A stretch of 64,000 bases of DNA from a virus. Taxonomy: Duplodnaviria > Heunggongvirae > Uroviricota > Caudoviricetes. The stretch lies in IMG/VR virus record IMGVR_UViG_2698536476_000008. The stretch is one strand, 5' to 3'. Below, piece after piece: positions 31,322 through 53,447 of the stretch; the stretch's first letter is position 1; each line of letters starts with the position of its first letter. Under the pieces are notes generated by a model that saw only the letters and a program-made list of their open reading frames with translations, did no database searches and had not been told where the DNA came from. The position numbers were made by a program, and so were the translations under genes.

Positions 31322-32515
31322 GTGACCTGGGACGATCACAAGAAGAATTTTGCTCGCCTGGCGCGAGATGGTGGTTACACCATCGCACAGTATGCCGCCG
31401 AGTTTAATCTTAACCCTAATACCGCACGTCGTTATCTCCGTGCCTTCAAAGAAGACACCAGGACAGCGGACAGCCGCAAGCCAAATAAGCCAGTCAGGAA
31501 GCCACTAAAAAGCATGATCATTGATCACTCTAATGATCAACATGCAGGTGATCACATTGCGGCTGAAACAGCGGAAAAACAAAGAGTTAATGCCGTTGTC
31601 AGTGCCGCAGTCGAGAATGCGAAGCGCCAAAATAAGCGCATAAATGATCGTTCAGATGATCATGACGTGATCACCCGCGCCCACCGGACCTTACGTGATC
31701 GCCTGGAACGCGACACCCTGGATGATGATGGTGAACGCTTTGAATTCGAAGCTGGCGATTACCTGATAGATAACGTTGAAGCGCGGAAGGCCGCGCGCGC
31801 TATGTTGCGTCGGTCCGGGGCCGATGTTCTGGAAACCACTCTTCTGGAAAAGTCTCTTTCTCATCTCCTTATGCTGGAGAACGCCAGGGATACGTGTATT
31901 CGCCTGGTGCAGGAAATGCGCGATCAGCAAAAAGACGATGATGAAGGTACTCCGCCTGAATACCGTATCGCGAGCATGCTAAACAGCTGTTCCGCGCAGA
32001 TAAGCAGTCTGATCAACACCATTTACAGCATCCGGAATAACTATCGAAAAGAAAGCCGGGAGGCGGAAAAGCACGCTTTGTCTATGGGGCAAGCTGGCAT
32101 TGTTAAGCTGGCATATGAACGAAAGCGTGAAAATAACTGGTCAGTGCTGGAAGCAGCTGAATTCATCGAGGCGCATGGTGGGAAAGTTCCGCCCCTGATG
32201 CTGGAGCAAATCAAAGCCGATCTGCGTGCTCCTAAGACCAATACCGATGATGAGGAAAGGCAAACAGCCGTCGGTGGCCCTTCTCTTGACGATCTGGACA
32301 AAGTTGCGCGAGAACGGGCCGCCAACCGCCGCGCCGATGCCGCATTGTGGATTGAGCAGCGTAGGGAAGAAATCGCCGATATCGTTGATACAGGCGGTTA
32401 TGGAGATGTTGATACTGAAGGTGTATCAAACGACCCATGGCTGGAACAAGACCTGGACGAAGACGAGGAGGAAGACGAAGAAGTTACCCGCAAGCTATAC
32501 GGGGATGATGATTAA
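31322..32515 (+). CDS. pacA: Pacase small subunit
   Basis: 397-aa ORF containing the pac hexamer cluster. Confidence 0.8.
31514..31673 (+). other. pac packaging site: two clusters of TGATCA/TGATCG hexamers (4 + 3 Dam sites) flanking the cleavage region
   Basis: Hexamers at 31514, 31522, 31534, 31549 and 31644, 31657, 31668. Confidence 0.75.
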
Positions 32516-33999
32516 TGGCCAGAAGTTGCGTAACGGATCCTCGTTGGCGCGAGCTGGTGGCGCTATATCGTTATGACTGGATTGCTGCCGCTGATGTTTT
32601 GTTCGGCAAAACACCTACCTGGCAGCAGGATCTGATTATTGAGTCTGTGCAGGAACAGGGTAGCAAGACATCTGTTTCGTCTGGTCACGGTACCGGGAAA
32701 TCAGACATGACTTCTATCATGATCATGTTGTTCATAATCATGTATCCCGGTGCCCGCGCCATTATCGTTGCGAACAAAATTCAGCAGGTAATGACCGGTA
32801 TATTCAAGTACATCAAGATAAACTGGGCTACTGCCACCAGCCGTTTTCCATGGCTTGCTGATTATTTTGTTCTGACAGAAACCGCTTTCTATGAGGTTAC
32901 TGGTAAAGGTGTATGGACTGTAGTACCGAAGGGCTTTCGTCTGGGAAGTGAAGAAGCTCTCGCCGGTGAACACGCAGATCATCTTCTGTATATTATCGAT
33001 GAAGCCTCCGGTGTCAGTGATAGAGCTTTCGGTATCATCACCGGTGCTCTTACCGGACAGGATAACCGCATCTTATTACTGTCACAGCCTACACGCCCAA
33101 GCGGCTATTTCTACGATACTCACCATAAACTGGCCAAGCGTCCTGGTAACCCAGATGGCGTTTATACGGCGATCACGCTTAACAGTGAGGAATCACCGCT
33201 GGTAACGCCAGAATTTATCAAAATGAAGCTGGCGGAGTACGGCGGGCGTGATAACCCTATGTACATGATTAAGGTGCGCGGCCTATTCCCTAAATCACAG
33301 GACGGCTTCCTTCTTGGACGTGATGAGGTTGAACGTGCAACGCGGCGGAAAGTTAAGATTGCCAAAGGATGGGGCTGGCTTGCATGTGTGGACGTTGCTG
33401 GTGGTACGGGACGGGATAAGTCAGTTATCAATATCATGATGGTGTCCGGCCAGCGAAATAAACGCCGTGTAATCAACTATCGAATGCTGGAATACACAGA
33501 CGTTACAGAAACGCAGCTTGCCGCCAAAATTTTCGCAGAATGTAATCCTGAGCGATTCCCCAATATCACCATAGCGATAGATGGCGATGGCCTGGGTAAA
33601 GCAACAGCGGATCTGATGTACGAGTATTATGGTATTACCGTACAGCGTATACGCTGGGGTAAAAAGATGCATAGCCGTGAAGATAAGAGCCTGTACTTTG
33701 ATAAACGTGCTTATGCCAACGTTCAAGCCGCAGAGGCCGTAAAATCTGGTCGTATGAGACTGGATAAGGGTAATGAAACTATTGAGGAAGCGTCGAAAAT
33801 CCCTGTAGGGATTAACTCCGCAGGTCAATGGAAGGTGATGAGTAAGGAGGATATGAAGAAAAAACTCAACCTGCACTCACCAGACCATTGGGATACATAT
33901 TGTTTCGCTATGCTGGCGGATTATGTTCCCCAGGATGAAGTGCTTAGCGTCGAAGACGAAGCGCAGGTTGATGAAGCTCTGGCATGGCTTAATGAATGA
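32515..33999 (+). CDS. pacB: Pacase large subunit (terminase large subunit-like)
   Basis: 494-aa ORF coupled to pacA. Confidence 0.8.
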
Positions 34000-34002
34000 A
34001 TA

Positions 34003-34019
34003 TTTGCTCTAATAAATTG
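34003..34019 (+). promoter_or_regulatory. C1 operator-like site (TTTGCTCTAATAAATTG) preceding the immI-like module
   Basis: Direct read. Confidence 0.5.
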
Positions 34020-34201
34020 TGTTTTTTAGCTACCGATGTTACATTGAACCTGACCTCTTGCGCCTTGAGGCATTTTCGGTTTATGCTTATCAGGCACCTC
34101 ATTAAAACGGGTGCCGGGATTGGCCTCCCGCTTAAGTCTAAGGCGATACAGACGCCGCTCGCGTCTTTTTTTGTATCGGCGTACACGCACACCTCTACAA
34201 T

Positions 34202-34277
34202 GGTGGGCTGTATGGGGCTACCTTCGGGTAGGCTGGTTACCTTGGACGCCAGTAAGGCCAACTCCGTACAGTCCACC
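34202..34277 (+). ncRNA. c4: c4-like structured antisense RNA candidate (about 76 nt, ends paired)
   Basis: GGTGGGCTGTA at 5' end pairs with TACAGTCCACC at 3' end; internal hairpin CTACCTTCGGGTAG; sits between operator and icd/ant. Confidence 0.45.
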
Positions 34278-34337
34278 GCCAGCAAGATTGGTCTCTTCTG
34301 CGGTGGTTACATACCAACGTCTAAGGAGGCTGCCAAT

Positions 34338-34559
34338 ATGGCTACTATCCCTACCCCAACTCATCCTGAATTTATCTGGCGCTTTTACTCCTGCCAAAAA
34401 CGTCACTATCACTTCGTTATTGCACCAACAGAAGATGAGGCCCGCTCTCAGCTGCCTGACGCCCCATGTATTTTCTCTGCCCGTTTTTCCACTGATTCAC
34501 GCAATTCTCTCAGTTACTGGTACCTCCCTGTTAACGCTTCTGTTCAGGAGGGGCTATGA
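34338..34559 (+). CDS. icd: Icd-like small protein overlapping ant start
   Basis: 73-aa ORF, TAAGGAGG RBS, ATGA overlap with next gene. Confidence 0.5.
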   Translation: MATIPTPTHPEFIWRFYSCQKRHYHFVIAPTEDEARSQLPDAPCIFSARFSTDSRNSLSYWYLPVNASVQEGL

Positions 34560-35674
34560 GAACGTCATTAGTCACCCGTGAAGAGATGATCGAGGCAATT
34601 GAACAGCACACTGCCTGTATCAGCACCAGGGATATTCCCAGTGTTATAGCCAACTACTTCATGATCACTAAACAACTTTACCGGAGAAAGGACAAGAACG
34701 CGGTTCACCGTATCCTGCTGTCTGATATTCGCGAATACCTGCTCGAACAGGGTCATCTGAATTACGCAACCGTCGCAGCCGAAGCACGCAAGGAGGCACA
34801 CAGAATGAAAGCAACTAACGTTAAATCAGAAAAAATTCATGCACCTTCAGTTCAGGAATCGGAGCTGGTGGTTGTTCAGAATCAGTCTGATGAAATTCCC
34901 GTTCTGGAATGGCAGGGAGTGCGTGTAGTGACAACCGAGACTCTTGCTAGAGGGTATGGGACAGAAACAATCCGTATTCGCCAAAATCATCATGAGAACA
35001 AAGTACGCTTTGTTGAAGGGAAGCACTTTTTCAAAGTTGAAGGAGAATCATTGCGCGAGTTGAAGCACAGAGTAGCTTTAAACTACTCTGTAAAAATTGC
35101 TCGCAATGTTCGCTCACTCACCCTCTGGACAGAACGCGGCGCAGCCCGCCACGCTAAAATGCTCGAAACCGATCAGGCATGGGCATTCTTTGAAAAACTG
35201 GAAGACAGCTACTTCCGACAAAAAGAACAGCAACCGATCGCAATCCCCCAGACGCTTCCTGAAGCCCTACGCCTGGCTGCCGAACTGGCTGAACAAAAGC
35301 AACTTCTGGAACAGAAAGCCCACCAGCTAAATCAGCAGCTGGTGGCCGCCGCTCCTAAAGTCGATTTTGCCGACCGGGTATCAGTAGCTAAAGGGATCCT
35401 GATTGGGAATTTTGCAAAGGTTGTTGGACTTAAGCAAAACGCGCTGTTTGTCTGGTTACGGGAGAACGGCATCCTGATAGCGTCCGGTGGACGTAAAAAT
35501 GTGCCGTTCCAGCAGTACATCAACGCGGGGTATTTCACGGTGAAAGAAGTGGTGCTGGATGATGAAGATGGCTACCAGATACGGTTGACGCCTCAATTAA
35601 CGGGTAAAGGCCAGCAGTGGTTGACGCGTAAACTGCTCGATGCTGGCTTGTTAAAACCGGTGGCAGCTGAATAA
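34556..35674 (+). CDS. ant: Antirepressor (ORF6N-like N-domain, Ant/KilAC-like C-domain); possible internal start for shorter isoform
   Basis: 372-aa ORF with antirepressor-type sequence features. Confidence 0.6.
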   Translation: MRTSLVTREEMIEAIEQHTACISTRDIPSVIANYFMITKQLYRRKDKNAVHRILLSDIREYLLEQGHLNYATVAAEARKEAHRMKATNVKSEKIHAPSVQESELVVVQNQSDEIPVLEWQGVRVVTTETLARGYGTETIRIRQNHHENKVRFVEGKHFFKVEGESLRELKHRVALNYSVKIARNVRSLTLWTERGAARHAKMLETDQAWAFFEKLEDSYFRQKEQQPIAIPQTLPEALRLAAELAEQKQLLEQKAHQLNQQLVAAAPKVDFADRVSVAKGILIGNFAKVVGLKQNALFVWLRENGILIASGGRKNVPFQQYINAGYFTVKEVVLDDEDGYQIRLTPQLTGKGQQWLTRKLLDAGLLKPVAAE

Positions 35675-35706: not shown

Positions 35707-36558
35707 TTATTGCGCGCTTTCGGGGTTGTCGTTTACTGGCTGCCCCTTCTTGGTTTTACGACTGCGCGTAACTGATGCGGCTGACTTAACCTTTTTCTCT
35801 TCGCGAGTGATGGCAATTTGTTTTTTTACATTTTCAATATCTGCCAGGCGATATATTTTTGCTTGCGGCCAGCGGTCGCAGATGATCGGTTCTATGGAGT
35901 CATAAAGGCTAAATTTTGCTTTTTCGAATTCACCGTTGATGATAATTCCATCACGGAGAGTTTCATCGCAGATAAACACGCCACACAGTGGCACATGGTA
36001 ACTAACTGATTTACCATCATTGTAGTTAGGGCTACTGGAAATGTAGTGGACGCGCAGCATTGTTTCGCTAAAGCCGTGTACGCGCATACGGAATTTTTCA
36101 TCCTCCGGGTACTGCCTCATTAGCTCTTTTGTTGCTTCCAGGTTCTCTATGTATTTCGCACTGTGCTCATTGATCCCCGCGCTTTTCTGGATGCGAATGT
36201 CCTTATCAATCAGATGAATAATGCGGCCAGCGGTCATGTTGACGCTGTTCACAGCTTCTGTCTGATAAGTTGTAACCTTACGCACACCGCGAAGGATGTT
36301 AGGCACTGGATATAAAATAGTCTTTGGGATATTGAGGTCTGGGTACTGTTCCAGTTCCCGCGCCATTAAAGTCCATTTATCAATTTCAGCCTGAATGCTG
36401 TCCGTTTCTTTGAACGGCAGAACGACAACCGGGCGAACAGGACGACCGTCGCTGGCGGCATCAACGTGTTGGGCGCGTGCAACAGCTTTTTTTAGAAAGA
36501 GATCCCTGAAGCTGACGAACTCCTGGTACAGTTGTTCGCCGTAGACATAATTTATCAT
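35707..36558 (-). CDS. c1: C1 repressor of lysis/lysogeny
   Basis: 283-aa ORF MINYVYGEQLYQEF...; position between pacB side and coi/loxP; its operator motif is scattered through the window. Confidence 0.8.
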   Translation of the reverse strand: MINYVYGEQLYQEFVSFRDLFLKKAVARAQHVDAASDGRPVRPVVVLPFKETDSIQAEIDKWTLMARELEQYPDLNIPKTILYPVPNILRGVRKVTTYQTEAVNSVNMTAGRIIHLIDKDIRIQKSAGINEHSAKYIENLEATKELMRQYPEDEKFRMRVHGFSETMLRVHYISSSPNYNDGKSVSYHVPLCGVFICDETLRDGIIINGEFEKAKFSLYDSIEPIICDRWPQAKIYRLADIENVKKQIAITREEKKVKSAASVTRSRKTKKGQPVNDNPESAQ

Positions 36559-37116: not shown

Positions 37117-37133
37117 TAATTTATTAGAGCAAT
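37117..37133 (-). promoter_or_regulatory. C1 operator (ATTGCTCTAATAAATTA) on minus strand
   Basis: Reverse complement read. Confidence 0.55.
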
Positions 37134-37199
37134 TGTCAAACAACTATGAAAAACAATCCAGTTTTTGGCTGGTGGAGTGGGATTTTTCTCTCAAAATTT

Positions 37200-37216
37200 A
37201 TTGCTCTAATAATTCT
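37200..37216 (+). promoter_or_regulatory. C1 operator-like site (ATTGCTCTAATAATTCT)
   Basis: Direct read. Confidence 0.55.
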
Positions 37217-49698: not shown

Positions 49699-52429
<2,731 letters not shown>

Positions 52430-52442
52430 CCACCAAAAATAA

Positions 52443-52464
52443 CCCCGGCGGCTGCCGGGGTTCT
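52443..52464 (+). terminator. Rho-independent terminator (ccccggcggctgccgggg + TTCT)
   Basis: Stem-loop read directly. Confidence 0.55.
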
Positions 52465-52720
52465 CGTTAACTATTATCGCCTTCGCCTGCGTGCCATATA
52501 TTTGCGCACCGCGCGGCGTGGACAATCTGAAGCGGTTTCTTTCTGCTGCATCAATCTTGCAGCCATGCTCAAAAATGTCAGGCACAGCCGAAGCCCGGCA
52601 TACAATAGCGGTTCCAGTGGCCACGTCTCATTGAGCACATATACCGCCATGAAAATCGAGTCGAAAACTATCGCCGCCAACGATAACTTCATTGTCGAAA
52701 GTCGGCGGAGCTGCCGGAGT

Positions 52721-53278
52721 TTATTCATTGACCAGTCCCGTCAGGCAAAGCTGGCGTTCTTTTTCACGGCGAATCTTTAAACCTCGCAGGGGCACGCCGT
52801 TACTGTTCACGAAATCAGGGAGATGGTTACACATATTCACCCATTCCCCTTTCTGCGCCCACTTGTGGATGGACGTTTCTACTCGCATGCCTCGCGCTTT
52901 GCTGTAGTAGGTCCGTAAGCTATTGCATCCCATATTGAATGCCGCGCTTGTCATTGCACTGAAGGCATTATCGGGCATGTCTTTGCCCCGGAAGTGCTGA
53001 TTAATACAGCGTTCAGCGATCAGGATATTCTTTTCCCAATCAGCGGCGATTTGCTGGTCTGTTTTTCGCACACCCGGCGTTACCCCGTGTGTATTACCGA
53101 TCCCGTCAGTCCATACCCCTGCCGGGCACATGTATGGATCACGTCGGCAACCTTCAGCGTTACCAATCAGCTCAAGCCCCGCCTGGTTGGTTCGCACATT
53201 GCCATTACCCATCACGATGGTAATCATCACCGCGATAGCGCAAATTGCACCGCCTCCTGCGGCTGTTTTTCCCTTCAT
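52721..53278 (-). CDS. lyz: SAR endolysin, T4-lysozyme-like (GH24)
   Basis: 185 aa from ATG; N-terminal SAR segment AICAIAVMITIVMGNG; ELIGNAEGCRRDPY catalytic region. Confidence 0.8.
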   Translation of the reverse strand: MKGKTAAGGGAICAIAVMITIVMGNGNVRTNQAGLELIGNAEGCRRDPYMCPAGVWTDGIGNTHGVTPGVRKTDQQIAADWEKNILIAERCINQHFRGKDMPDNAFSAMTSAAFNMGCNSLRTYYSKARGMRVETSIHKWAQKGEWVNMCNHLPDFVNSNGVPLRGLKIRREKERQLCLTGLVNE

Positions 53279-53411
53279 AAAGACCTCATAAGCGAATTTT
53301 TTACGCTCCAGGACAAACACCCATTCACAGCCAATACCGACTGACTCGATCCCTTTAGAAGGCACAGGATAATGCAAATCACTTGTTAGCTACGTTTCAA
53401 AGATATACATT

Positions 53412-53428
53412 ATTGCTCTAATTAATTT
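53412..53428 (+). promoter_or_regulatory. C1 operator-like site (ATTGCTCTAATTAATTT) preceding ssb
   Basis: Direct read. Confidence 0.6.
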
Positions 53429-53447
53429 ATTTTATTAGGTAAGATAA

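What the first reader, a model, noticed from the sequence alone, without database searches (positions are those of the whole stretch)
34202..34277. Candidate antisense regulatory RNA with paired termini upstream of icd/ant
GGTGGGCTGTA at the 5' end pairs with TACAGTCCACC at the 3' end around internal hairpins (CTACCTTCGGGTAG, GACGCCAGTAAGGCC), giving a tRNA-like, RNase P substrate-like shape of about 76 nt. It sits exactly where a c4-type antisense repressor would act on the ant leader. A T-run hairpin at about 34150-34175 upstream may act as an attenuator.
Basis: partly seen in the sequence, partly recalled or inferred. Interest (0 to 1): 0.4.

Follow-up and report, generated by a model that had tools for sequence, protein, structure and literature searches.

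The report
Second C4 antisense RNA in P1-like phage
The flagged 76 bases are a genuine member of the well-known C4 antisense RNA family, the small RNA that phage P1 uses to keep its antirepressor silent. Here it sits in an extra, unannotated copy of that control module, so the finding is correct but largely ordinary.

Summary
Window 34202-34277 (+) folds into a 16-bp closing stem around two hairpins (MFE -40.1 kcal/mol, z -4.3). It matches Rfam C4 antisense RNA (RF01695) at 75.9 bits against a gathering score of 45, higher than P1's own c4 (68.8).

It lies in a complete immI-like module inserted between pacB and c1 of a P1-like phage-plasmid:
- a C1 operator;
- promoters;
- c4;
- targets a2/b2, with b2 overlapping the icd Shine-Dalgarno;
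- icd, then ant, translationally coupled.

Across 27 distinct homologues, 99.7% of structure cells pair and 16 of 26 pairs show compensatory changes. Across 28 recognition-sequence types, the two unpaired C4 segments track both target sets (0 of 20,000 permutations do as well).

Two complete relatives also carry the canonical immI c4, with different recognition sequences, so this is a second, probably orthogonal circuit. Gifsy-1's isrK/STnc1160 locus is a homologue with identical geometry and experimental support.

RefSeq annotates no RNA here and calls an "ash family" pseudogene instead. This is a new member of a known kind, of modest interest. An open-reading-frame signal across the RNA remains unexplained.

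The parts
34003..34019 (+). C1 repressor operator (Oc4/Op51-like), TTTGCTCTAATAAATTG
   Evidence: It has 2 mismatches, both at the ends, to the P1 operator consensus. There are 15 such sites in the window against 0.32 expected. It aligns with the annotated Oc4 of P1. The operator core lies upstream of 27 of the 32 loci with pacB upstream.
34018..34046 (+). Inferred C1-controlled promoter (P2c4/P51a-like): TTGTGT, 17-nt spacer, TACATT
   Evidence: Positional homology to the annotated P2c4 of P1, whose -35 overlaps the operator. The match to consensus is weak and the scanner did not call it. Inference only.
34058..34087 (+). Inferred leader promoter: TTGCGC, 18-nt spacer, TATGCT, then 6 nt to G34094
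   Evidence: In every genomic context of the module, a -10-like hexamer ends 6 nt (7 nt in one lineage) before the G of the conserved GCACC leader start, with a TTG-type -35 placed 17-18 nt upstream. G34094 is the first position of the Rfam isrK model. Below the scanner's threshold. Inference.
34094..34172 (+). IsrK-type leader RNA, containing a1, b1 and an intrinsic terminator
   Evidence: Rfam isrK RF01394, 34094-34171, 60.8 bits (gathering 50), E 1.5e-10. Terminator stem-loop 34150-34166 plus T run. Gifsy-1's isrK has the same geometry.
34120..34126 (+). a1, upstream copy of the a target (TTGGCCT), in the loop of leader hairpin 2
   Evidence: Perfect 7-nt complement of a'. a1 tracks a' across 28 types, with 0 of 20,000 permutations as good.
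34136..34143 (+). b1, upstream copy of the b target (GTCTAAGG)
   Evidence: Complementary to b' with one G.U. b1 tracks b' across types.
34202..34281 (+). C4 antisense RNA: closing stem 34202-34217/34262-34277, hairpin 1 34218-34231 (UUCG loop), hairpin 2 34232-34253, 3' tail GCCA 34278-34281
   Evidence: Rfam C4 75.9 bits. MFE and z-score. 99.7% of cells paired, 16 of 26 pairs with double changes, slid controls 33-49%. RNAalifold independently gives the same fold. Ends are placed by homology to the annotated P1 c4.
34240..34247 (+). b' recognition sequence (CCTTGGAC) in the hairpin-2 loop
   Evidence: Pairs with b1 and b2. About 24 distinct b' sequences among homologues, each matched by its own targets.
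34255..34261 (+). a' recognition sequence (AGGCCAA) in the single-stranded junction
   Evidence: Pairs with a1 (7 Watson-Crick) and a2 (6 Watson-Crick plus 1 G.U).
34288..34294 (+). a2 target site (TTGGTCT)
   Evidence: Same position relative to c4 as the annotated a2 of P1. Complementary to a' with one G.U. It is the only one of 28 representative modules whose a2 is not fully Watson-Crick.
34319..34329 (+). b2 target site (GTCTAAGG, 34319-34326) overlapping the icd Shine-Dalgarno AAGGAGG (34323-34329)
   Evidence: Duplex -12.8 to -13.9 kcal/mol with the hairpin-2 loop. In all homologues b2 abuts GGAGG/GAGG ahead of the first ORF.
34338..34559 (+). icd (73 aa), Icd-like cell-division inhibitor and upstream ORF needed for ant expression in P1
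   Evidence: 82% identical to P1 Icd, E 4e-42. RefSeq names the identical protein 'host cell division inhibitor Icd-like'. No Pfam family for it or for P1 Icd.
34556..35674 (+). ant (372 aa) antirepressor; its start ATG overlaps the icd stop (ATGA)
   Evidence: ORF list. Pfam ORF6N plus ANT/KilAC domains. 56% identical to P1 Ant1, with conserved N- and C-terminal parts and a swapped centre.

Best explanation
The element is a C4-family antisense RNA gene. It belongs to a second immI-like immunity operon (operator, promoters, IsrK-type leader, c4, icd, ant) inserted between pacB and c1 of a P1-like phage-plasmid.

Proposed mechanism, step by step:
1. Transcription starts at about G34094 from a weak constitutive promoter. 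When C1 repressor is absent, it also starts from an upstream promoter that overlaps the C1 operator.
2. Most transcripts stop at the leader terminator, giving a short IsrK-like RNA that carries a1 and b1.
3. Read-through transcripts contain c4, a2/b2, icd and ant.
4. RNase P cuts between U34201 and G34202. The substrate features are a long coaxial stem, GGU at +1 and a 3' GCCA tail. 3' trimming then releases a C4 RNA of about 79 nt.
5. The C4 hairpin-2 loop (b') pairs with b2 across the icd Shine-Dalgarno, and its junction (a') pairs with a2. This blocks icd translation.
6. Because ant is translationally coupled to icd, and untranslated leader is prone to premature termination in P1, no antirepressor is made. 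C1 stays active and lysogeny and immunity hold.
7. The leader copies a1/b1 compete for the same C4 segments, in cis in the unprocessed transcript and in trans as the short RNA. The leader:C4 ratio therefore sets the switch.

Shown here: family membership, fold, covariation, target complementarity, gene order, and homology to two experimentally studied systems.

Inferred: transcription starts, read-through, RNase P cleavage, repression and the decoy role.
For: - Family score: Rfam C4 75.9 bits against 45, above P1's own c4 at 68.8.
- Fold: stable and strand-specific. Across 27 distinct homologues 99.7% of cells pair, 16 of 26 pairs show compensatory double changes, and slid registers reach 33-49%. 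RNAalifold recovers the same three helices unaided.
- Layout: element-by-element correspondence with the annotated P1 immI (Oc4, promoters, a1, b1, c4, a2, b2, icd, ant).
- Targets: the unpaired segments are complementary to a2/b2 and a1/b1, with b2 on the icd SD. Among 28 recognition types, cognate complementarity beats all 20,000 permutations for each of the four site classes.
- Proteins: Icd is 82% identical and Ant 56% identical to the P1 proteins, with an ATGA overlap.
- Operator: C1 operator at 34003-34019.
- Gifsy-1: isrK plus C4 with the same +109 geometry. There, a ~80-nt species processed from terminator read-through was seen, leader:'orf45' pairing was proven by compensatory mutations, and short IsrK in trans activates antirepressor translation more than 100-fold (PMC4825925).
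- Cis pairing: the full read-through RNA is predicted to pair a1/b1 with a'/b' in cis.
- RNase P: cleavage at a GGW motif and the 77-nt mature form are reported for P1/P7 C4 (Hartmann 1995 and Citron & Schuster 1992, as summarised in PMC5320573).
Against: - There is no expression or processing data for this locus.
- Both promoters are weak by consensus, and the scanner called none on the + strand.
- An intrinsic terminator lies between the promoter and c4, so C4 output depends on read-through.
- Three of the four target sites pair through a G.U wobble, which is unusual among homologues and could mean weakened repression.
- Duplex energy alone is not unique. The real target ranks only in about the top 0.3% of 65-nt tiles in the window.
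- The Gifsy-1 authors interpret the same stretch as a translated ORF (orf45), and a reading-frame signal exists here.
Confidence: 0.85

Rival explanations
1. The stretch is primarily an mRNA leader that is translated. An ORF starting at the conserved AUG 34200 (Gifsy-1 'orf45', Pfam 'Ash' domain) runs through c4 and, in this window, in frame into icd. Regulation would then work by alternative mRNA structures and by the short IsrK RNA, not by a trans-acting C4 RNA.
For: - The translation of 33996-34337 passes the Pfam PF10554 Phage_ASH threshold (31 bits against 26).
- RefSeq calls an 'ash family protein' pseudogene over 34083-34313 in a 100%-identical plasmid.
- The AUG frame has no stop inside c4 in 53 of 53 unique modules, against 17 and 9 of 53 for the other two frames.
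- Leader-to-AUG spacings of 90, 93, 102, 114 and 132 nt are all multiples of 3.
- AUGs at +107 and +119 match the orf45 start codons, whose mutation lowers anrP activation in Gifsy-1.
Against: - Within the hypervariable loops, the absence of stops is not significant (0 observed, 2.6 expected, P about 0.07). P1's own c4 has an in-frame TAA.
- The frame has stops in the leader in 14 of 44 modules.
- There is no in-frame start codon between the TSS and AUG 34200 (read from the sequence).
- There is no third-codon-position excess of variation.
- The ORF's end is not conserved: in-frame fusion, a stop 21-27 nt before the next start, or a long out-of-frame run-on.
- Helices keep pairing through double changes that would alter two codons each.
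- Coding does not explain why b2 and a2 co-vary with b' and a'.
- RNase P cleavage would remove the AUG.
- A dual role (some transcripts translated, others processed) is not excluded.
Confidence: 0.12
2. C4 acts chiefly as a transcription-termination factor, in the manner of P4 CI RNA. Pairing with the upstream and downstream repeats would cause premature termination, and translational occlusion would not be the primary event.
For: Targets flank the RNA on both sides, like seqA and seqC in P4. The Gifsy-1 authors raise this possibility for STnc1160. In P1 itself, translational repression leads to premature termination upstream of ant (my recollection of Biere et al. 1992, not checked here).
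Against: b2 always abuts or overlaps the Shine-Dalgarno of the first ORF in every lineage, which points to ribosome exclusion as the primary contact. In Gifsy-1, constitutive STnc1160 did not behave as a simple termination factor.
Confidence: 0.08
3. The module is a decaying, non-functional duplicate of immI, and the RNA fold is merely inherited.
For: The canonical immI with its own c4 exists in complete relatives. G.U wobbles sit at three of the four target sites. Promoter consensus is weak.
Against: icd and ant are intact and coupled. The module is 100% identical in many independent plasmids, and 103 plasmid records cover at least 80% of it. All wobbles preserve pairing rather than break it. 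Several recognition types occur at this same pacB-c1 site, each internally matched, which implies continuing selection.
Confidence: 0.04
4. It is a tRNA gene or a tRNA-derived pseudogene.
For: Paired termini, about 76 nt, and a 3' GCCA after the closing stem.
Against: ARAGORN finds only the three tRNAs at 4105-6334. Rfam tRNA does not match here, while C4 does. The architecture is a 16-bp stem with two hairpins, not a cloverleaf.
Confidence: 0.01

Closest known systems
c4 antisense RNA of the immI operon of phages P1 and P7 (Rfam RF01695; Citron & Schuster 1990, 1992)
   Same: - Same family by covariance model.
- Same three-helix fold, and the same placement of b' (hairpin-2 loop) and a' (junction).
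- Same a1-b1 / c4 / a2-b2 / icd / ant order, with b2 on the icd SD.
- Same C1 operator upstream and the same icd-ant ATGA overlap.
   Different: - Location: between pacB and c1 instead of between sim and kilA. It is additional to the canonical copy in complete relatives.
- Recognition sequences: a TTGGCCT/TTGGTCT and b GTCTAAGG, against P1's TTGACAG and GTTAGTGA. Predicted cross-reaction is weak.
- Leader: isrK type (RF01394) with a strong terminator, where P1's matches RF03163 c4-a1b1.
- Ant has a different central domain (ORF6N).
isrK - STnc1160/'orf45' - anrP locus of Salmonella prophage Gifsy-1 (Hershko-Shalev et al. 2016, PMC4825925)
   Same: Both have isrK plus C4 Rfam hits with identical spacing: the C4 5' G is at +109 from the isrK 5' end, and AUGs lie at +107 and +119. 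In both, the terminator is read through into an antirepressor gene, and the leader middle region is complementary to the C4 recognition segments.
   Different: - Gifsy-1 has no icd. The antirepressor follows directly, and 'orf45' ends at its start.
- There is no C1 operator, and the phage backbone is lambdoid.
- That paper does not identify the ~80-nt species as a C4 homologue or consider RNase P.
CI RNA immunity system of satellite phage P4 (seqA - cI/seqB - seqC)
   Same: A small RNA is processed from the leader of the operon it controls, and it pairs with repeats upstream and downstream of itself. The Gifsy-1 authors cite it as a structural analogue of IsrK/seqA. The Pfam 'Ash' family that overlaps this region is named after a P4 protein.
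   Different: P4 CI acts by causing premature transcription termination of replication genes, not by controlling an antirepressor. I did not test sequence or structural homology to P4 here.

Membership tests
C4 antisense RNA (Rfam RF01695) | Covariance-model score at or above the curated gathering score | tested here: met
   75.9 bits against 45, E 4.7e-13, full-length model match 1-87 on the + strand. P1 c4 scores 68.8.
C4 antisense RNA (Rfam RF01695) | Long closing stem enclosing two hairpins, supported by compensatory changes | tested here: met
   MFE fold. 99.7% of cells paired and 16 of 26 pairs with double changes, against 33-49% paired in slid controls. RNAalifold gives the same fold. 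Caveat: my locus filter fixed the two outermost pairs.
C4 antisense RNA (Rfam RF01695) | Unpaired segments a' and b' complementary to sites a2 and b2 downstream on the same strand, with b2 overlapping the ribosome-binding site of the first ORF | tested here: met
   a' 34255-34261 with a2 34288-34294. b' 34240-34247 with b2 34319-34326, which overlaps SD 34323-34329. Cognate complementarity exceeds all 20,000 permutations.
C4 antisense RNA (Rfam RF01695) | Second copy of the targets (a1, b1) upstream of c4 | tested here: met
   a1 34120-34126 and b1 34136-34143.
C4 antisense RNA (Rfam RF01695) | 5' end made by RNase P at a GGW motif; mature RNA of about 77 nt | not testable with these tools
   The sequence is compatible: U-1/G+1, GGU start, a 16-bp stem and a 3' GCCA tail. 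The AuGG and CCaCC positions are conserved in the Rfam consensus. Cleavage itself needs experiment.
C4 antisense RNA (Rfam RF01695) | Represses antirepressor synthesis and determines immunity specificity | not testable with these tools
   Only inferred, from homology to P1 and Gifsy-1.
P1 immI operon (canonical locus) | c4-icd-ant gene order with translational coupling and an upstream C1 operator | tested here: met
P1 immI operon (canonical locus) | Position between sim and kilA-repL | tested here: not met
   The module lies between pacB (32515-33999) and c1 (35707-36558). Complete relatives carry the canonical locus elsewhere as well. It is therefore a paralogous second module, not immI itself.
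isrK Hfq-binding RNA (Rfam RF01394), for the upstream element | Covariance-model score above gathering, and a 3' intrinsic terminator | tested here: met
   60.8 bits against 50. Terminator-like site 34150-34166 plus T run. On its own the fold is not statistically unusual (z -0.9).
isrK Hfq-binding RNA (Rfam RF01394), for the upstream element | Hfq binding and trans-activation of the antirepressor | not testable with these tools
   Known only for Gifsy-1 (PMC4825925).
tRNA | Cloverleaf detectable by tRNA finders | tested here: not met
   No ARAGORN call and no Rfam tRNA hit at this site.
Ash protein family (Pfam PF10554) | Profile score above the curated cut-off | tested here: met
   31 bits against 26 for the translation of 33996-34337. 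NCBIfam gives no hit.
Ash protein family (Pfam PF10554) | A conserved, translatable ORF with coding-type sequence evolution | tested here: inconclusive
   For: the frame is open in c4 in 53 of 53 modules and spacers are multiples of 3. Against: stops in the leader in 14 of 44, no third-position bias, a variable ORF end, and an in-frame stop in P1.

The most novel reading that the evidence does not exclude
P1-like phage-plasmids run two independent C4/antirepressor circuits. The second is a chimera of a P1 C1-operator region and a lambdoid isrK-type leader-c4 cassette, and it has its own recognition code. That would give the plasmid an extra, orthogonal immunity and induction channel in which the short leader RNA acts as a sponge for C4. 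Some codes, with identical c4 sequences, are shared between P1-like plasmids and lambdoid-type prophages. If so, C4 or leader RNAs from one element could repress or trigger the antirepressor of an unrelated co-resident prophage. The stretch may also be dual-function (RNA gene plus translated leader ORF), which would make Pfam's 'Ash domain' largely the translation of an RNA gene.
Probability: 0.3. Interest if true: 0.5.

Novelty: new member of a known kind. Interest (0 to 1): 0.25.

Why it matters

More broadly:
- About a third of the isrK-C4 modules sampled from viral contigs sit at this pacB-c1 site of P1-like phage-plasmids. These plasmids are common carriers of resistance genes, yet records annotate only 'ant' or an 'ash' pseudogene there.
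- Recognising a second antisense-controlled antirepressor bears on how these plasmids switch to lytic growth and on which co-resident phages they are immune to.
- The comparison links the Gifsy-1 IsrK literature to the P1 C4 literature. The two describe homologous modules in different terms.

None of this changes the known mechanism class.

Tried and rejected
- Promoter scanner: it found no + strand promoter between 33900 and 34700. The promoters are therefore inferred only from positional conservation and from the P1 annotation.
- First P1 fetch: the first NC_005856 stretch I fetched (50000-60000) lay downstream of immI and held no c4; immI came from the second fetch.
- Covariance model: MFFT put P1-type c4 out of register with the isrK-type copies. 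I did not build a model of my own. I used a gap-free alignment of isrK-type copies instead.
- First b-site parse: it relied on MFE loop calls and failed for many loci. I replaced it with a positional probe.
- Coordinate error: my first Pfam query for Icd, and the 'icd' tblastn column, used 34339 instead of 34338 and so were out of frame. I discarded and redid them. Neither this Icd nor P1's has a Pfam family.
- NCBIfam gave nothing for the leader/c4 translation.
- The codon-position entropy control on the downstream ORF was uninformative because those sequences are too diverged.
- A fixed-column intermolecular pair count was abandoned, because the b' register shifts by one base between lineages. 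A permutation test replaced it.
- Hartmann et al. 1995 and the P1 genome paper could not be read. Their content is cited second-hand or marked as my recollection.
- The tRNA reading was rejected. Minus-strand function was rejected because the fold is weaker and the G.U pairs would become A-C mismatches.

Full report
**1. What is at the coordinates.** Window 34202-34277 (+) reads GGUGGGCUGUAUGGGG CUACC UUCG GGUAG GCUGG UUACCUUGGACG CCAGU AAGGCCAA CUCCGUACAGUCCACC. It folds into a 16-bp closing stem (34202-34217 with 34262-34277). This stem encloses hairpin 1 (34218-34231, UUCG loop), hairpin 2 (34232-34253, 12-nt loop) and an 8-nt single-stranded junction (34254-34261). The MFE is -40.1 kcal/mol, z = -4.26, and none of 200 shuffles folds as well. 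The opposite strand folds far less well. The second 'hairpin' (GACGCCAGTAAGGCC) is not a hairpin: it spans the 3' arm of hairpin 2 and the unpaired junction.

**2. Identity.** A scan of the whole window against Rfam gives C4 antisense RNA (RF01695) at 34196-34283 (+), 75.9 bits against a gathering score of 45, E 4.7e-13. Immediately upstream it gives isrK (RF01394) at 34094-34171 (+), 60.8 bits against 50. No tRNA is called here. P1's experimentally defined c4 scores 68.8 bits with the same model.

**3. Surroundings.**
- The window is a P1-like phage-plasmid (Punavirus). pacA and pacB end at 33999, c1 lies at 35707-36558 (-), and coi and cre follow.
- P1 and P7 have pacB directly followed by c1. 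This window, like 673R5 (98% identical), JL22 and RCS47, has about 1.7 kb inserted there.
- The GenBank record of P1 annotates every element of immI. An alignment maps them one to one onto the insert:
  - a C1 operator (34003-34019, TTTGCTCTAATAAATTG), one of 15 operator-like sites in the window against 0.32 expected by chance;
  - promoter regions;
  - a1 (34120-34126) and b1 (34136-34143);
  - c4;
  - a2 (34288-34294) and b2 (34319-34326);
  - icd (34338-34559, 82% identical to P1 Icd);
  - ant (34556-35674, start overlapping the icd stop; ORF6N plus ANT domains; 56% identical to P1 Ant1 with a swapped centre).
- Venturini et al. 2019 noted 'two short hypothetical orfs and an antirepressor (ant)' inserted between pacB and c1 in pTZ20_1P and RCS47 (PMC6906374). 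In the passages I retrieved they do not mention an RNA there.

The hairpin-2 loop segment b' (CCUUGGAC, 34240-34247) pairs with GUCUAAGG at b2, which overlaps the icd Shine-Dalgarno AAGGAGG, and with the identical b1. The junction segment a' (AGGCCAA, 34255-34261) pairs with a1 (UUGGCCU, perfect) and a2 (UUGGUCU, one G.U). Sites this short are not unique by energy alone. The true downstream target ranks only in about the top 0.3% of 65-nt tiles of the window. The weight therefore rests on comparative evidence.

**5. Comparative evidence.**
Of these, 89 modules (53 unique) had a recognisable c4.
- Intramolecular: in a gap-free alignment of 27 distinct c4 sequences, 99.7% of structure cells form standard pairs and 16 of 26 pairs change on both sides. 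The covariation score is 0.52 against 0.19 in shuffles. Registers slid by 1-3 columns give 33-49% pairing. RNAalifold independently predicts the same three helices. One caveat: my locus filter required the AUGG and CCRCC motifs, so the outermost pairs are fixed by selection. The Rfam consensus shows the same conserved motifs.
- Intermolecular: there are 28 distinct combinations of junction and loop sequence. In each, the leader and downstream sites carry the matching complements. Mean cognate scores are 6.98/7 (a2), 7.84/8 (b2), 6.91/7 (a1) and 7.73/8 (b1). No permutation of partners out of 20,000 reaches these values.
- This is the pattern expected if the loops and targets really pair, and if changes in them create new immunity specificities, as known for P1 versus P7.

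**6. A second circuit.**
- Two complete relatives carry two C4 genes each. Phage 673R5 has one in the canonical immI with a c4-a1b1-type leader and one at pacB-c1. Plasmid NZ_CP027590.1, whose module is 100% identical to the window's, has a P1-identical c4 in immI plus this one. The window itself does not reach the canonical locus.
- Predicted duplex energies are diagonal-dominant. Cognate a'+b' sums are -19 to -22 kcal/mol. P1- and P7-type C4 reach about -8 on this module's target, and this C4 reaches about -14 on theirs. The two circuits should therefore be largely orthogonal.
- Homology to Stx/lambdoid phage modules begins at base 34095 (query position 16), next to the predicted leader start at G34094. 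The roughly 90 nt upstream, with the C1 operator, is shared only among P1-context copies and resembles P1's own Oc4/P2c4 region. The module therefore looks like a chimera of a P1 control region and a lambdoid isrK-c4 cassette.
- About a third of the sampled modules (32, all with pacB upstream) are at this site, with at least five recognition combinations. In PLSDB, 103 plasmid records cover at least 80% of the region.

**7. Link to experimental systems.**
- Gifsy-1 has isrK (34316-34240, -) and a C4 hit (34214-34131, -, 69 bits). The C4 5' G is at +109 from the isrK 5' end, exactly as in the window (34094 to 34202).
- Hershko-Shalev et al. 2016 showed for that locus:
  - read-through of the IsrK terminator into the antirepressor gene;
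  - a stable ~80-nt species (STnc1160/orf45') processed from the read-through transcript;
  - pairing between the middle of IsrK and that region, proven by compensatory mutations;
  - more than 100-fold activation of antirepressor translation by short IsrK in trans.
- They do not mention C4, P1 or RNase P.
- Folding the window's predicted read-through RNA (34094-34350) gives an MFE structure in which a1/b1 pair in cis with a'/b', disrupting the C4 fold. This corresponds to their inactive 'structure A'.
- For P1/P7, RNase P makes the C4 5' end at a GGW motif and the mature RNA is about 77 nt (Hartmann 1995 and Citron & Schuster 1992). The window has U-1/G+1, GGU, and a tRNA-like GCCA directly after the closing stem.

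**8. Most likely mechanism.** See the best explanation above. In short, C4 is processed from read-through transcripts and occludes the icd ribosome-binding site through b'/b2, with a'/a2 adding specificity. Coupled ant is not expressed and C1 repression is maintained. The leader copies a1/b1 compete for C4. Shown here are family membership, fold, covariation, target matching and synteny. Inferred are the transcription starts, processing, repression and the decoy role.

**9. An unresolved oddity.**
- RefSeq annotates no RNA here. It calls an 'ash family protein' pseudogene over 34083-34313. The translation of 33996-34337 passes the Pfam PF10554 threshold.
- That frame starts at the conserved AUG 34200, which corresponds to Gifsy-1 orf45's first AUG at +107. 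It has no stop inside c4 in 53 of 53 unique modules. The leader-to-AUG spacings (90, 93, 102, 114, 132 nt) are all multiples of three.
- Against real coding:
  - the lack of stops in the hypervariable loops is not significant (P about 0.07), and P1 has an in-frame stop;
  - 14 of 44 leaders have stops, and there is no third-position bias;
  - the ORF's end is not conserved.
- The likeliest reading is that the 'Ash domain', also reported at the N-terminus of some Stx-phage Rha proteins (PMC8951638), is largely the translation of this RNA module. Some translation from AUG 34200 is not excluded.

**10. Verdict.** The element belongs to a well-characterised family and works by a textbook mechanism. 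What is new is limited to its being an unannotated second copy with its own recognition sequences and an isrK-type leader at a non-canonical site in P1-like plasmids. Novelty: new member of a known kind. Interest: 0.25.

Noticed in passing
window 34083-34313 (+), and 33996-34559 as a 187-aa ORF: RefSeq calls an 'ash family protein' pseudogene over the leader plus c4 in an identical plasmid, and the translation passes Pfam PF10554 (31 bits against 26). The frame is open from an ATG at 33996, which overlaps the pacB stop (ATGA), through c4 and into icd. This suggests that the Pfam Ash family is at least partly built on translations of the isrK/C4 RNA module.
   Followed up: partly
isrK-type modules in loci L007-L126 (viral contigs); window 34107-34200: The distance from the conserved leader anchor to the AUG at the c4 5' end falls in classes of 90, 93, 102, 114 and 132 nt, all multiples of 3. 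The only exceptions are +1 variants, possibly from variable T-run length (not checked). The AUG frame has no stop inside c4 in 53 of 53 unique modules. No explanation fits fully.
   Followed up: partly
L088 (IMG/VR contig), around the leader anchor: The leader a1 site is joined directly to the sequence that normally follows a2. The terminator, spacer and c4 are deleted, as if by recombination between the a1 and a2 repeats. This should leave icd/ant without their antisense repressor.
   Followed up: no
L120 (P1-like contig): A mosaic module: a1 is TTGAGAC, while a' and a2 are of the GTTCCAA/TTGGAAC type. The upstream decoy therefore no longer matches its own C4, which looks like a recombinant between two specificity types.
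   Followed up: no
L011, L019, L098 (132-nt spacer class): The longer spacer between the leader terminator and c4 contains an extended -10-like sequence (TGTATAAT). It might give c4 its own promoter in that lineage.
   Followed up: no
window 34288-34294, 34136-34143 and 34319-34326: In this recognition type, three of the four target sites pair with C4 through a G.U wobble. Of 28 representative types, 27 have a fully Watson-Crick a2. The same wobble-containing version recurs in at least 15 P1-like loci and many plasmids, so it is stably inherited.
   Followed up: partly
viral-contig loci, e.g. L010, L013, L018 against L009, L029, L103: Three recognition combinations, with identical c4 sequences, occur both in P1-like plasmids (pacB-c1 site) and in other, lambdoid-type contexts. 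This predicts antisense cross-talk between unrelated co-resident elements. The window's own combination is almost confined to P1-like contexts (15 loci against 1).
   Followed up: partly
window 144-53428 (15 sites): There are 15 matches to the 17-bp C1 operator consensus with up to 3 mismatches, against 0.32 expected. They include overlapping divergent sites at 3420-3447 and a pair at 37117-37216 upstream of c1/coi.
   Followed up: no
window 4105-4258 and 6259-6334: Three phage tRNA genes are called: Asn(GTT), Thr(TGT) and one read as Met(CAT). RefSeq annotates the equivalent gene as tRNA-Ile in a related plasmid, which in addition carries a tRNA-Tyr between the Asn and Thr genes.
   Followed up: no
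window 34556-35674: Ant shares its first ~85 and last ~140 residues with P1 Ant1. The central part is replaced by an ORF6N domain, so this is a domain-swapped antirepressor.
   Followed up: partly
L006 34473-34647 (phage 673R5, outside the window): An Rfam sok antitoxin RNA hit (89.7 bits), i.e. a hok/sok-type module, lies downstream of repL in the close relative.
   Followed up: no
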